64,000 bases of DNA from Candidatus Nomurabacteria bacterium (GTDB lineage Bacteria; Patescibacteriota; Patescibacteriia; HK-STAS-PATE-3). Location of the stretch: NCBI GenBank assembly GCA_023898465.1, contig CP060223.1, forward strand, positions 256,001-320,000, given 5' to 3'. Below are positions 20,967 through 26,216 of this stretch, one piece after another; position 1 is the first letter of the stretch, and each line of letters starts with the position of its first letter. Below the pieces are notes generated by a model that was not told where the DNA came from, did not search any database, and was given only the letters and a program-made list of their open reading frames with translations. The translations under genes and the position numbers were made by a program.

Positions 20967-21641
20967 TTGCGATTTTCAAAAATGACAATAGGACATGTAG
21001 TTGAAGAATTTAAAAGTCGGTATATTAAAAGACAACTAGATCATAATTTTATTGTTTTAGAGACTCAAAATAACAACCAACTAAATTTATCATATAGATT
21101 AAGATACGAAGTATATTGTCTAGAATGTAAATATTTAGACGTGAATAATTATCCCAATAGGTCTGAAAAGGATGAGTATGATGATTGTTCAATACATTTC
21201 ATCGCAATAAATAAAAAGACAAAAAATGTTGTTGGCACAATTCGACTTATTAAACGCACTAATAGGAATTTGCCAATAGAGCATGATTTTGGAATTTCTC
21301 TGAATGGATCAATTAGTTCTAAAAAAGTTGTGGAGATTTCTAGACTAGCGGTTGATAAAAAATTTAGGAAGTCGAGTTTAAAGCATCCAAGTATTATGTT
21401 AGGTTTATTAAAAGCATGCTATAGATACGCCGAAGAAAATGGAATTGCAATGTTTGTAGCGGCAATAGATCAAAATGTATATAATATGTTAAAAAAGTTT
21501 CGTTTTTCATTTAATTTATTAGGGGAACCAAAACATTATATGGGTTCAATCTCAGTACCCGTGTTAATTGATATCGAAAAAGAATCGCAGTGGTTAAAAA
21601 TAGTAAATCCTGGACTATGGACATTTCTTTCAAGCAATTAG
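20967..21641 (+). CDS. GNAT-fold N-acyltransferase of the LuxI/FeeM-like (N-acyl amino acid synthase / autoinducer-synthase-like) type
   Basis: YRLRYEVYCLECKYL N-terminal motif. Central IRL...IEHDFG...VEISRLAVDKKFR matches the acyl-CoA binding core of GNAT/FeeM-like enzymes. Confidence 0.5.
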   Translation: MRFSKMTIGHVVEEFKSRYIKRQLDHNFIVLETQNNNQLNLSYRLRYEVYCLECKYLDVNNYPNRSEKDEYDDCSIHFIAINKKTKNVVGTIRLIKRTNRNLPIEHDFGISLNGSISSKKVVEISRLAVDKKFRKSSLKHPSIMLGLLKACYRYAEENGIAMFVAAIDQNVYNMLKKFRFSFNLLGEPKHYMGSISVPVLIDIEKESQWLKIVNPGLWTFLSSN

Positions 21642-22276
21642 CTCATAAAATTGTATTATTCTATTTAAGACGGGCTAGCCACAAAAAATACCTAACATTT
21701 AGCTTTAGCGATCTTATTATACTCTGTCCCCCAAACGTGTTCCCGCCTAATTCGTTTACCACTGACCTAATGGCTAAGTGGCTAGTAAACGAAGAGATGG
21801 AAGGTAAACAGGTTTTAGAGATGGGTTGTGGAAGTGGATACATTTCGATTATTGCCGCACGAAAAGGGGCAAAAGTAATTGCAAGCGACATCAGCCCTAT
21901 CGCGGTTGATGCCGCAAAAATCAATACCATAATAAATAAGATAAAAAATGTCGAATGTTATTGCTCGGACTTATTTTCTAACTTAGAAGGAAAGTTTGAT
22001 TTAATTCTCTTCAACGCACCTTTTTTTCATGGAGAACCCACTTCTTTATTAGATAACAATTGGATGAGTAAGGATGGGGAGGTGGTCAGTAAATTTTTTA
22101 AAGACGCAAGAGAATATATTAATCCAATGGGGAAGGTAGTTATTACTAGTTCGACTCTAGTTAATCAAGATGCTCTGAAAATATTAATTAAAGAAAGCGG
22201 ATTTAATATTGAAAACGTGAAAACAAAAAATATTATTATTGAAAAATTTTTCTTGTATGAATGTAGAGCTTTTTAA
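21617..22276 (+). CDS. Class I SAM-dependent methyltransferase (HemK/PrmC-like, N-methyl specific)
   Basis: Motif I VLEMGCGSGYISI; catalytic FNAPF (an NPPY-type variant). Confidence 0.7.
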   Translation: MDISFKQLAHKIVLFYLRRASHKKYLTFSFSDLIILCPPNVFPPNSFTTDLMAKWLVNEEMEGKQVLEMGCGSGYISIIAARKGAKVIASDISPIAVDAAKINTIINKIKNVECYCSDLFSNLEGKFDLILFNAPFFHGEPTSLLDNNWMSKDGEVVSKFFKDAREYINPMGKVVITSSTLVNQDALKILIKESGFNIENVKTKNIIIEKFFLYECRAF

Positions 22277-25785: not shown

Positions 25786-26216
25786 AACAGGTAAGGGGGA
25801 AACAACCAAAACGCATCCTACTTGTCGAGGACGAGCCGCTCTTAGCAACGATGTATATGTTGGCGTTGCAGCAACGAGTAAAGGCTGAGGTGTACGGGGC
25901 TAAGACACGCGAAGAAGCGGAGCGCATTATTGAGCGTGTGAAGCCGGATTTAGTGCTGCTTGATCTCATGATTCCCTCGATTACCATCCAAGACACGGAG
26001 CAGGATTTTCATCATCCAGTAGGGCTGCAATTCTTAGCCCAAATTCGGAAGAGTCCAAAGACGCGTTCAATCAAGGTAATGATTCTCTCCAACCTTGATG
26101 CGGATGAGCAACGCAAGCGGGCCATTGATTTAGGTGCCGAGGATTACCTATTAAAAGCCAGTCTGCAGCCGCACGCGATTGTGGAAAAGGTAAAGCATAG
26201 TTTAGGGATAAAATAA
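25782..26216 (+). CDS. Single-domain response regulator (CheY-like REC only)
   Basis: ILLVEDEP...DLVLLDLMIP phospho-acceptor region; ATGA overlap with the kinase stop. Confidence 0.8.
   Translation: MKQVRGKQPKRILLVEDEPLLATMYMLALQQRVKAEVYGAKTREEAERIIERVKPDLVLLDLMIPSITIQDTEQDFHHPVGLQFLAQIRKSPKTRSIKVMILSNLDADEQRKRAIDLGAEDYLLKASLQPHAIVEKVKHSLGIK

What the first reader, a model, noticed from the sequence alone, without database searches (positions are those of the whole stretch)
20967..26216. Compact low-GC signalling/modification locus: LuxI/FeeM-like GNAT acyltransferase + SAM methyltransferase + E1/ThiF-like protein + 7TM-GAF histidine kinase + REC-only regulator
Directly after the sensor array come a GNAT-fold protein with the YRLRYEVYC motif typical of N-acyl amino acid or autoinducer-synthase-like enzymes, a HemK-like MTase (FNAPF), a minimal E1/ThiF-like adenylyltransferase, then the kinase and a single-domain response regulator. 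The arrangement suggests synthesis of a small acylated, methylated or adenylated signal, or modification of a peptide (a microcin-C-like logic of E1-like enzyme + MTase + GNAT is conceivable). The adjacent 7TM receptors would then perceive it, making this a self-contained cell-cell or host-sensing circuit. The whole block is about 30-35% GC against about 50% for the core.
Basis: partly seen in the sequence, partly recalled or inferred. Interest (0 to 1): 0.7.

Follow-up and report, generated by a model that had tools for sequence, protein, structure and literature searches.

The report
Acyl-amino-acid signal cassette with sensor kinase
A tiny uncultured (CPR) bacterium carries one operon that probably makes a small modified fatty-acyl amino acid and sits beside, and was apparently inherited together with, the membrane sensor most likely to detect it; this looks like a cell-to-cell signalling circuit, built from enzyme types whose products so far have no known receptor.

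Summary
The five genes, their domains and motifs are as described, in a Candidatus Nomurabacteria genome. One correction: the low-GC block ends inside the kinase gene, not after the regulator.

The conserved core is the acyltransferase plus the ThiF-like enzyme. Among 33 distinct relatives of the ThiF-like protein, 24 sit beside an acyl-activating or acyl-transfer enzyme (21 FeeM/LuxI-like GNATs, 3 GH3/PaaK-like). Thirty sit beside a regulator: a 7TM histidine kinase in Patescibacteria-like, Chloroflexota and Gammaproteobacteria genomes, a LuxR-type protein in Bacteroidota. GNAT–ThiF fusion proteins exist in both domain orders.

The methyltransferase is an archaeal-type HemK2 recruit found only in this locus. 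The microcin-C, ubiquitin-like-carrier and housekeeping ThiF/MoeB readings fail their tests.

Third-codon GC jumps from 0.22 to 0.55 at kinase codon ~220. The six upstream kinase-less 7TM paralogues end at exactly that point. Synthase genes and sensor module therefore form one compositional cassette.

Verdict: a new variant of a known kind. The product and its sensing are inferred, not shown.

The parts
16859..16885 (+). Hairpin followed by a T-run, 56 nt upstream of the first 7TM gene. It is either the terminator of the upstream gene or a 5' leader element, and marks the left edge of the unit.
   Evidence: 10-bp stem. The sequence shows a promoter-like TTGCCC-17-TATAGT at 16717-16745 upstream of it and an AAAGGAG Shine-Dalgarno before the ATG at 16941. 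Promoter counts are not above chance.
16941..20959 (+). Six tandem kinase-less 7TM proteins: 16941-17600, 17602-18261, 18261-18932, 18985-19605, 19602-20288 and 20291-20959. They are paralogues of the kinase's sensor module.
   Evidence: HisKA_7TM hit for the first. They align collinearly with kinase residues 1-224 at 16-27% identity, 53% and 40% within two pairs, and all end at the conserved Y.I.R[KR] boundary. Genes abut or overlap, and most have Shine-Dalgarno sequences.
20967..21641 (+). FeeM/LuxI-superfamily GNAT, a predicted N-acyl amino acid synthase. An alternative ATG start lies at 20982.
   Evidence: Homologues lie next to ThiF-like genes in 21 of 33 distinct loci. Fused to ThiF in P0083, P0084, P0098, P0113 and P0162.
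21617..22276 (+). HemK2/Mtq2-type SAM methyltransferase with an NAPF variant of the NPPY motif. Predicted lineage-specific tailoring enzyme. It overlaps both neighbouring genes.
   Evidence: There is no homologue in related loci. Its nearest relatives (<=38% identity) lie in archaeal or unrelated contexts.
22257..23021 (+). AclA-type stand-alone ThiF/E1-like adenylating enzyme (254 aa). Predicted ATP-dependent activation and cyclisation of the free carboxylate.
   Evidence: (invariant R8, N9, G30, G32, D53, D55, SNLNRQ, K76, P210-Q211; D120 in at least 90% of sequences).
23014..23685 (+). HisKA_7TM sensor module of the kinase (residues 1-224). It belongs to the low-GC3 (0.22) compositional class of the biosynthetic genes.
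23686..25785 (+). Kinase core: two further hydrophobic segments, two GAF domains, HisKA and HATPase_c. GC3 is 0.55, as in the genome core.
25782..26216 (+). Single-domain response regulator (REC only). It overlaps the kinase stop codon.
   Evidence: REC-only partners also occur in L002, L004 and L010.
26334..26531 (+). 65-aa protein with two hydrophobic segments, the last ORF before the terminator. Its membership of the unit is uncertain.
   Evidence: Called as a gene. Hydrophobic segments. No Pfam hit.
26515..26541 (+). Strong intrinsic-terminator-like hairpin (12-bp stem followed by T7) at the right edge of the unit.

Best explanation
This is one operon of about 9.6 kb (roughly 16.9-26.5 kb). 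It couples a short pathway for a modified N-acyl amino acid to the two-component system that most likely senses the product.

Proposed steps:
1. The FeeM/LuxI-type GNAT joins an acyl group from acyl-CoA or acyl-ACP to an amino acid. This is inferred from family membership.
2. The AclA-type ThiF enzyme adenylates the free carboxylate with ATP. An internal nucleophile then closes a ring, giving an oxazolone, lactone or lactam. This is inferred from the shared chemistry of ThiF-like enzymes and from OxzB, TyzB and TrzS.
3. The HemK2-like methyltransferase adds an N-methyl group, a tailoring step specific to this lineage. This is inferred from the NPPY-type motif only.
4. The hydrophobic product is detected in the membrane by the HisKA_7TM module of the kinase, which signals through the REC-only regulator. 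This is inferred from conserved adjacency and shared composition.

The six kinase-less 7TM paralogues would bind the same or related molecules as decoys, co-receptors or carriers. That part is speculative.

The biosynthetic genes and the sensor module appear to have arrived together. They look grafted onto a resident kinase core, as in the comQXP and agrBDC pherotype cassettes.
For: Shown here:
- Domain assignments.
- Genes overlap or abut, and terminator-like hairpins bracket the block.
- The ThiF family keeps all nucleotide-binding and Mg residues and has a family-specific C-terminal PQ motif.
- Of 33 distinct family members, 21 have an adjacent homologous GNAT and 3 a GH3/PaaK-like adenylate-forming enzyme. 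Thirty have an adjacent regulator, and 24 have both.
- L008 carries a true GH3 protein next to a HisKA_7TM-GAF-PAS kinase.
- L010 (a gammaproteobacterial MAG) repeats the order 7TM-GNAT-ThiF-kinase-REC. It is flanked by an acyl-CoA synthetase, an alpha/beta hydrolase and an AI-2E family transporter.
- GNAT-ThiF and ThiF-GNAT fusion proteins exist.
- GC3 breaks at the sensor/kinase boundary in the window and independently in L002. In the window this is exactly where the stand-alone 7TM paralogues end.

From the literature:
- The N-acyl amino acid synthase plus ThiF-type ATP-dependent cyclase pair is demonstrated for OxzAB, TyzABC and TrzAS (PMC10404671, PMC12856293, PMC12596934).
- A synthase + methyltransferase + ThiF arrangement occurs in stieleriacine clusters (PMC12479983).
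- The oxazolone authors themselves suspected a signalling role, but no receptor is known (bioRxiv 10.1101/2020.06.11.147165).
Against: - No product, substrate or ligand has been observed.
- I could not find the AclA paper, so the reaction of the closest relative is unknown to me. The window protein is only 24-28% identical to it.
- The window ThiF is not close to the OxzB/TyzB clade: NF005901 scores 56.7 bits against a cut-off of 476.
- There is no nitroreductase partner. A saturated oxazolone would be very labile.
- Adjacency of a kinase to a pathway can mean regulation by another cue rather than self-sensing.
- CPR bacteria often lack fatty-acid synthesis, so the acyl donor is unclear.
- The Bacteroidota GNATs are very divergent from the window GNAT.
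- The GH3/PaaK-like proteins of L002 and L004 are assigned only by sub-threshold hits.
- The GC3 break is weak in L004 and L010.
Confidence: 0.55

Rival explanations
1. The three enzymes make an N-acyl amino acid derivative that is not the kinase's ligand, for example an antimicrobial, biosurfactant or envelope lipid. The 7TM kinase senses something else, such as membrane state or a host cue, and merely regulates or is co-inherited with the pathway.
For: Known products of synthase + ThiF pathways (tyrazolones, stieleriacines) have no demonstrated receptor. They are discussed as lipids, antimicrobials or biofilm modulators (PMC10404671, PMC12479983). The kinase also has two cytoplasmic GAF domains that could take a different input.
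Against: A regulator is adjacent in 30 of 33 distinct loci, and its type changes with phylum while the enzyme pair stays. The sensor module shares the foreign composition of the enzymes and not that of its own kinase core, in two genomes.
Confidence: 0.3
2. This is a microcin-C-like or other RiPP system. The E1-like enzyme activates the C-terminus of a small ribosomal peptide, and the methyltransferase and GNAT tailor it or give immunity.
For: MccB, PaaA, IndF, EnfB and GrcB are ThiF-like enzymes (PMC12596934). Some Bacteroidota loci carry a C39-ABC exporter and a radical SAM gene nearby.
Against: The ThiF-like protein starts at the Arg finger and has no counterpart of the first ~87 MccB residues, which form the peptide clamp. 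No intergenic space or plausible short ORF exists in 20960-23020. The GNAT is LuxI/FeeM-type, not RimI/RimL-type. The operon has no peptidase or exporter.
Confidence: 0.03
3. The genes are housekeeping enzymes that happen to lie together: a ThiF/MoeB/TcdA-type enzyme for a sulfur carrier or tRNA modification, an Mtq2-type release-factor methyltransferase and an acetyltransferase.
For: The best NCBIfam hits by score are ThiF models (98.8 bits) and HemK2/MTQ2 (above its cut-off). The methyltransferase's relatives sit in archaeal translation-related neighbourhoods.
Against: All ThiF, MoeB and TcdA equivalog cut-offs are missed by wide margins. No Gly-Gly carrier ORF lies near the gene in 51 loci. 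The family has no conserved Cys or zinc motif. AclA is structurally much closer than MoeB or TcdA. GNAT fusions exist. The genes lie in a foreign-composition block.
Confidence: 0.05
4. The block is a horizontally acquired island of functionally unrelated genes, and the apparent operon is coincidence.
For: Composition is clearly foreign. The methyltransferase is unique to this locus.
Against: The order GNAT-ThiF-kinase-REC recurs in an unrelated gammaproteobacterial MAG (L010). ThiF-ligase-kinase-REC recurs in two Patescibacteria-like lineages, and ThiF-ligase-hybrid kinase in a Chloroflexota genome. Fusion proteins also exist.
Confidence: 0.04

Closest known systems
AclA of Tenacibaculum discolor (PDB 9EGB/9EGC/9EGD, released 2025-08-13) and its Bacteroidota neighbourhood of ThiF + LuxR-type regulator + GNAT
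   Different: Identity is only 24-28%. The regulator is a cytoplasmic LuxR/GerE protein in Bacteroidota but a 7TM-GAF histidine kinase plus REC here. The Bacteroidota GNATs lack the RLRYEVY region. Those loci have no methyltransferase and no 7TM array. I could not find the paper, so the reaction AclA catalyses is unknown to me.
Acyl-oxazolone pathways: OxzA/OxzB (Pseudoalteromonas rubra), TyzA/TyzB/TyzC and TrzA/TrzS (Mycobacterium tuberculosis)
   Same: An N-acyl amino acid synthase of the same GNAT superfamily is paired with a ThiF-type ATP-dependent cyclase acting on the free carboxylate (PMC10404671, PMC12856293, PMC12596934).
   Different: Those systems always include a nitroreductase-type flavin desaturase, either fused or adjacent. 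None is present here. The window ThiF is not in the Rv1355c/OxzB clade. Those clusters have no dedicated receptor, and the role of their products is open.
Stieleriacine clusters of Stieleria (Planctomycetota)
   Same: [quoted passage not shown]
   Different: They also carry a nitroreductase. The methyltransferase performs O- or C-methylation of tyrosine, whereas the window enzyme has an NPPY-type (N-methylating) motif. No two-component system is attached.
LuxM/LuxN and AinS/AinR of Vibrio; comQXP of Bacillus and agrBDCA of Staphylococcus (from my own knowledge)
   Same: A signal synthase is encoded next to a polytopic membrane histidine kinase that senses the hydrophobic product. In comQXP and agr, the synthase or processing genes and only the sensor half of the kinase form a variable, exchangeable cassette. 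This matches the compositional break seen here.
   Different: The enzymes and sensor domains are unrelated. Strain-level polymorphism, which defines pherotypes, could not be tested because no close relatives were found.
TIGR03694 PEP-CTERM/exosortase-associated acyltransferase
   Same: The window GNAT scores above this model's curated cut-off, at 139.6 against 111.95 bits. The L010 GNAT scores 94.1 bits.
   Different: No exosortase or PEP-CTERM genes are in the locus, and the host is a CPR bacterium. The family's product is also unknown.

Membership tests
FeeM / N-acyl amino acid synthase GNAT (PF21926, PF13444) | Profile score above the curated cut-off | tested here: met
   FeeM 58 bits (cut-off 27) and Acetyltransf_5 55.5 bits (cut-off 22.4).
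FeeM / N-acyl amino acid synthase GNAT (PF21926, PF13444) | N-acylation of an amino acid from acyl-CoA or acyl-ACP | not testable with these tools
   Needs an enzyme assay.
LuxI-type acyl-homoserine-lactone synthase | Score above the family or equivalog cut-offs | tested here: inconclusive
   Pfam Autoind_synth 47.3 bits (cut-off 24) is passed. The NCBIfam AHL-synthase equivalogs score 44.3 and 40.3 bits against cut-offs of 250 and 292.
TIGR03694 exosortase-associated acyltransferase | Score above the cut-off | tested here: met
   139.6 against 111.95 bits.
TIGR03694 exosortase-associated acyltransferase | Genome carries a PEP-CTERM/exosortase system | not tested
   None seen among the genes scanned in the locus. 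The rest of the genome was not available.
AclA-type stand-alone ThiF family | Full-length sequence and fold similarity, including the C-terminal helical region and PQ motif | tested here: met
   The family has 436 representatives at E <= 1e-30.
AclA-type stand-alone ThiF family | Same substrate and reaction as AclA | not testable with these tools
   The paper was not in the library. The PDB title says only 'in complex with substrate'.
Oxazolone synthetase systems (OxzAB / TyzABC / TrzAS) | N-acyl amino acid synthase partner next to the ThiF cyclase | tested here: met
Oxazolone synthetase systems (OxzAB / TyzABC / TrzAS) | Nitroreductase-type flavin desaturase, fused or adjacent | tested here: not met
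   No such domain in any gene of the 18-kb locus.
Oxazolone synthetase systems (OxzAB / TyzABC / TrzAS) | ThiF domain belongs to the Rv1355c/OxzB clade | tested here: not met
   NF005901 scores 56.7 bits against a cut-off of 476.
ThiF/MoeB sulfur-carrier adenylyltransferases | Equivalog score; Gly-Gly carrier partner; conserved Cys or zinc motifs | tested here: not met
   All cut-offs are missed. No GG-ending ORF lies within 4 kb in 51 loci. No invariant Cys in the family.
MccB/PaaA-type RiPP ThiF enzymes | N-terminal peptide-clamp/RRE domain and a precursor peptide gene | tested here: not met
   The alignment starts at MccB residue 88. No candidate ORF found.
HemK2/Mtq2 protein glutamine methyltransferase (TIGR00537) | Score above the cut-off and an NPPY-type motif | tested here: met
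   108.8 against 87 bits. The motif is NAPF.
HemK2/Mtq2 protein glutamine methyltransferase (TIGR00537) | Methylates release factor | not testable with these tools
   The context, inside a foreign biosynthetic operon, argues for a different substrate (inference).
Two-component system | HisKA with H-box, HATPase_c, and a receiver domain with its acidic pocket | tested here: met
   SHQLRTP and LLVEDE...LLDL can be read.
Pherotype-type cassette (comQXP / agr-like) | Synthase genes and only the sensor half of the kinase behave as one exchangeable unit | tested here: met
   GC3 break at codon ~220 in the window and codon 291 in L002.
Pherotype-type cassette (comQXP / agr-like) | Allelic variants among strains with a conserved kinase core | tested here: inconclusive
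   The metagenome scan with the kinase core found no close relatives.

The most novel reading that the evidence does not exclude
This would be a previously unrecognised class of autoinducer circuit. The signal is a cyclised (and here methylated) N-acyl amino acid made by a GNAT or GH3-type amide synthase plus an AclA-type ThiF enzyme. It is read by HisKA_7TM kinases in Patescibacteria, Chloroflexota and Gammaproteobacteria, and by LuxR-type regulators in Bacteroidota. In CPR bacteria the synthase genes and the 7TM sensor module move together as a specificity cassette grafted onto a resident kinase core. The six kinase-less 7TM copies would act as decoy or eavesdropping receptors.
Probability: 0.25. 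Interest if true: 0.8.

Novelty: new variant of a known kind. Interest (0 to 1): 0.6.

Why it matters
The biological role of N-acyl oxazolone-type metabolites is an open question. Their discoverers suspected signalling but found no phenotype or receptor (bioRxiv 10.1101/2020.06.11.147165; PMC12856293).

These loci place the same enzyme logic directly beside a receptor-type protein, in five phyla once the LuxR-linked Bacteroidota loci are counted. That yields concrete, testable synthase-receptor pairs.

The window also gives a candidate small-molecule communication system in a CPR episymbiont, a group whose signalling is almost unknown. It further shows a clear case of a histidine kinase assembled from a foreign sensor module and a native core.

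Tried and rejected
- The metagenome scan with the kinase core returned only generic kinases at 42% identity or less. The strain-level pherotype test therefore failed.
- The homologue search with the GNAT returned only the query itself.
- Exact look-ups with the TTG-start ThiF and the ATG-start GNAT found nothing.
- Ten literature searches did not recover the AclA paper. One was wasted on word-start matches to 'aclarubicin'.
- Pfam on the ~350-aa C-terminal extensions of the ThiF proteins P0099 and P0184 gave nothing. Their resemblance to the RxRxxV and EISR motifs is therefore only a lead.
- Rfam found no RNA family in 15000-27500.
- Promoter-like sites are at chance level.
- I considered the six 7TM ORFs as silent cassettes for gene conversion into the kinase and rejected this. 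They share only 16-25% protein identity with the kinase module, are intact, and mostly have their own ribosome-binding sites.
- I rejected membrane-protein codon bias as the cause of low GC3. The soluble GNAT and ThiF share the low GC3, and the P-type ATPase gene shows no break.
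Full report
**1. What is in the sequence**

The window comes from a Candidatus Nomurabacteria (CPR/Patescibacteria) genome. The ThiF-like protein is 100% identical to an NCBI MAG protein on a 1.08-Mb contig.

Between two terminator-like hairpins (16859-16885 and 26515-26541) lies a run of abutting or overlapping + strand genes:
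- Six proteins of 206-228 aa made of a 7TM module only (16941-20959).
- A GNAT (20967-21641).
- A methyltransferase (21617-22276).
- A ThiF-like protein (22257-23021).
- A 923-aa kinase (23014-25785).
- A REC-only regulator (25782-26216).
- A 65-aa protein with two hydrophobic segments (26334-26531).

The GNAT matches FeeM, Acetyltransf_5 and Autoind_synth, and passes the curated cut-off of TIGR03694. The methyltransferase passes TIGR00537 (HemK2/MTQ2) and carries NAPF where this family has NPPY. The ThiF-like protein matches PF00899 only and misses every ThiF, MoeB, TcdA and MoeZ equivalog cut-off. The kinase has HisKA_7TM, two GAF domains, HisKA and HATPase_c.

The same 18.2 kb was assembled without a mismatch from run SRR12358676.

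**2. Composition**

The low-GC tract runs from about 17.45 to 23.8 kb, not to 26.2 kb. Third-codon-position GC removes amino-acid effects, and the values are:

| Region | GC3 |
|---|---|
| GNAT | 0.22 |
| Methyltransferase | 0.33 |
| ThiF-like | 0.24 |
| Kinase residues 1-260 | 0.27 |
| Kinase residues 261-400 | 0.51 |
| Kinase residues 401-923 | 0.56 |
| REC | 0.54 |
| Flanking core genes | mostly about 0.5 |

A maximum-likelihood change point falls at kinase codon ~220 (0.22 against 0.55). The statistic 2dLL is 75.7, against 0.9 for the P-type ATPase gene and 5.1 for the AspRS gene. The observed shift exceeds all 500 codon permutations.

An independent Patescibacteria-like genome (L002) shows the same pattern. 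ThiF is 0.21, the ligase 0.28 and the kinase N-terminus 0.26, against 0.48 for the kinase core and 0.48 for REC. Its change point is at codon 291 with 2dLL 50.5. In L004 and L010 the break is weak.

The six stand-alone 7TM proteins align collinearly with kinase residues 1-224. All stop at the conserved Y.I.R[KR], which is 'SYAIIRHR' at kinase residues 219-226. That is exactly the change point. The kinase therefore looks like a foreign 7TM module joined in frame to a native core. The same module also exists as six free copies upstream.

**3. What is conserved elsewhere**

The ThiF-like protein belongs to a compact family of proteins about 250 aa long. The invariant residues are R8, N9, G30, G32, S35, D53, D55, the SNLNRQ motif, K76, P210 and Q211; D120 is kept in at least 90% of sequences. 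There is no invariant Cys. Exhaustive HMMER finds 436 cluster representatives at E <= 1e-30.

A scan of one genome per species returned 80 loci. I clustered the neighbours and searched them with profiles. Among 33 distinct family members at 95% identity:
- 21 have a homologue of the window GNAT within 4 kb, usually adjacent.
- 3 have instead an adjacent adenylate-forming enzyme of about 510-530 aa.
- 25 have a ~250-aa regulator with a C-terminal GerE/LuxR helix-turn-helix. All of these are Bacteroidota.
- 5 have an adjacent histidine kinase. A sixth kinase, 1.4 kb upstream in a Prevotellaceae locus that also carries the LuxR-type regulator, is probably unrelated.
- 24 have both an acyl enzyme and a regulator.

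The adenylate-forming partner in L008 (Dehalococcoidaceae) is a bona fide GH3 protein. Its GH3_M, GH3_C and GH3 N-terminal domains all score above the cut-off. It is followed by a HisKA_7TM-GAF-PAS-HisKA-HATPase-REC kinase. In L002 and L004 the partner has the TSGTTGEP nucleotide loop and only sub-threshold GH3, PaaK and FlxY hits. Pairwise similarity to the L008 protein is marginal.

L010, an uncultured gammaproteobacterium, repeats the window's order: 7TM protein, GNAT, ThiF, GAF kinase, REC. There is no methyltransferase. The block is flanked by an acyl-CoA synthetase, an alpha/beta hydrolase and an AI-2E family transporter.

L004 is also syntenic with the window upstream, with an M23 peptidase followed by an unknown protein.

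Among the 150 best family representatives there are fusion proteins. GNAT-ThiF occurs in P0083, P0084, P0098 and P0113, and ThiF-GNAT occurs in P0162. That is the classical sign that two proteins work on the same molecule.

No homologue of the methyltransferase occurs in any related locus. Its nearest relatives (<=38% identity) sit among archaeal translation genes or in unrelated places.

**4. Closest known systems**

By sequence profile and by fold, the nearest solved structure is 'AclA from Tenacibaculum discolor in complex with substrate' (9EGB, released 2025-08-13):
- Profile E-value 2e-91.
- Foldseek TM-score 0.84.

AclA is 66% identical to the flavobacterial members of my locus set and 28% identical to the window protein. 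I could not find the paper. NCBIfam of June 2026 has no model for this family. A 2025 review of ThiF-like chemistry does not list it.

The closest characterised chemistry is the acyl-oxazolone pathway. An N-acyl amino acid synthase (OxzA, TyzA or TrzA) acylates Tyr, Phe or Trp. A ThiF-type enzyme (OxzB, TyzB or TrzS) then adenylates the free carboxylate and closes the oxazolone ring. A nitroreductase-type flavoenzyme desaturates the product (PMC10404671; PMC12856293; PMC12596934).

Stieleriacine clusters contain a synthase, a methyltransferase, a ThiF protein and a nitroreductase (PMC12479983). This gives a precedent for the window's trio. The window lacks any nitroreductase, and its ThiF is outside the Rv1355c/OxzB clade.

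**5. Mechanism proposed**

Shown here:
- Family memberships of all the proteins.
- The operon-like layout.
- Conserved linkage of the ThiF-like enzyme with an acyl enzyme and a regulator.
- The fusion proteins.
- The compositional cassette.

Inferred:
- The GNAT makes an N-acyl amino acid. In relatives, a GH3 or PaaK-like adenylating enzyme does the equivalent job.
- The ThiF-like enzyme adenylates the product's carboxylate, and an internal nucleophile closes a ring. The amide oxygen would give an oxazolone, a side-chain hydroxyl a lactone, and a side-chain amine a lactam. I cannot say which.
- The HemK2-type enzyme, whose motif is typical of N-methyltransferases, tailors the product in this lineage only.
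- The product is sensed in the membrane by the HisKA_7TM module, and the REC-only protein relays the signal to an unknown target.

The regulator type changes with phylum while the enzyme pair stays. The sensor module shares the foreign composition of the enzymes rather than that of its own kinase core. Together these are the main arguments that enzyme pair and sensor form a cognate pair. This resembles comQXP and agrBDC (my own knowledge), where the synthase genes and the sensor half of the kinase vary together. The roles of the six kinase-less modules are speculative.

**6. Rivals**

- *Microcin-C/RiPP logic fails.* There is no peptide clamp: the alignment begins at MccB residue 88. There is no precursor ORF or intergenic space. 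The GNAT is of the wrong class, and the operon has no peptidase or exporter.
- *Sulfur-carrier or tRNA roles fail.* Cut-offs are missed, there is no Gly-Gly carrier ORF in 51 loci, and no conserved Cys.
- *The serious rival.* The metabolite may not be the kinase's ligand, and the kinase may regulate the pathway in response to another cue. I give this about 0.3.

**7. Verdict**

A small acylated signal made next to its receptor is the best reading. The peptide-modification idea and the conserved role of the methyltransferase are not supported.

The enzyme pairing is known and a family member has a solved structure. This is therefore a new variant of a known kind: no nitroreductase, wired to a 7TM kinase, in a CPR bacterium, and travelling as a synthase-plus-sensor cassette.

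Noticed in passing
window 39667-45392: A second low-GC island (37-42% GC). It encodes a 1175-aa SNF2-family helicase, a 514-aa DUF2779 protein and a 233-aa protein with no Pfam hit. It may be a defence or mobile island.
   Followed up: partly
window 12039-13255: A short low-GC stretch (36.8%) with two ORFs of 192 and 212 aa and no Pfam hit. It lies just upstream of an Ig-domain lipoprotein and an M23 peptidase.
   Followed up: partly
L029, L031, L032, L033, L068 (about 5000-15100 in each): Clustering puts the same neighbour set, with matching ORF lengths, around the ThiF-LuxR-GNAT triad in five genomes of different genera (Allomuricauda, an unclassified Flavobacteriales MAG, Cyclobacterium, Flagellimonas, Kriegella). 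The set includes a C39-ABC exporter, and the five ThiF proteins are over 95% identical. This suggests a mobile element carrying the triad.
   Followed up: partly
P0099, P0109, P0128, P0184 (ThiF at the N-terminus plus a ~350-400-aa extension); P0167; P0065: Other fusions occur in the AclA-type family. One is ThiF with a long C-terminal domain that has no Pfam match even at E <= 1. Another is an aminotransferase-ThiF fusion (P0167). A third is a tandem double ThiF (P0065).
   Followed up: partly
L006/L009 about 4264-8771 (Gammaproteobacteria RIFCSPHIGHO2_12_FULL_35_23): A family member in a different context. Its neighbours are an FAD/NAD-binding protein (NAD_binding_9), a Cucumopine_C protein, a DUF3419 protein and an AsnC-type regulator. 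There is no GNAT and no kinase.
   Followed up: no
L015 3127-14338 (Tenacibaculum sp.): Around the triad lie a C39-peptidase ABC exporter, an esterase, an HTH_3 regulator, a radical SAM protein and an M50-like peptidase. This may be a peptide natural-product cluster under the triad's control.
   Followed up: no
L039 (3.3-kb contig binned as Methanobrevibacter sp.): The contig carries a Bacteroidota-type ThiF, two GNATs and a LuxR fragment. This is most likely a binning contaminant rather than an archaeal occurrence.
   Followed up: no
window 16717-16885: The only extended -10 promoter-like site upstream of the operon lies before the hairpin and T-run at 16859-16885. The hairpin could therefore be a leader attenuator rather than the upstream gene's terminator.
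   Followed up: no
L002 13872-16317 and L004 5028-5735: Type IV pilus genes lie next to the ThiF-ligase-kinase-REC blocks of the two Patescibacteria-like relatives: PilM and PilN in L002, and an N_methyl pilin-like gene in L004. They are a possible output for the REC-only regulators.
   Followed up: no
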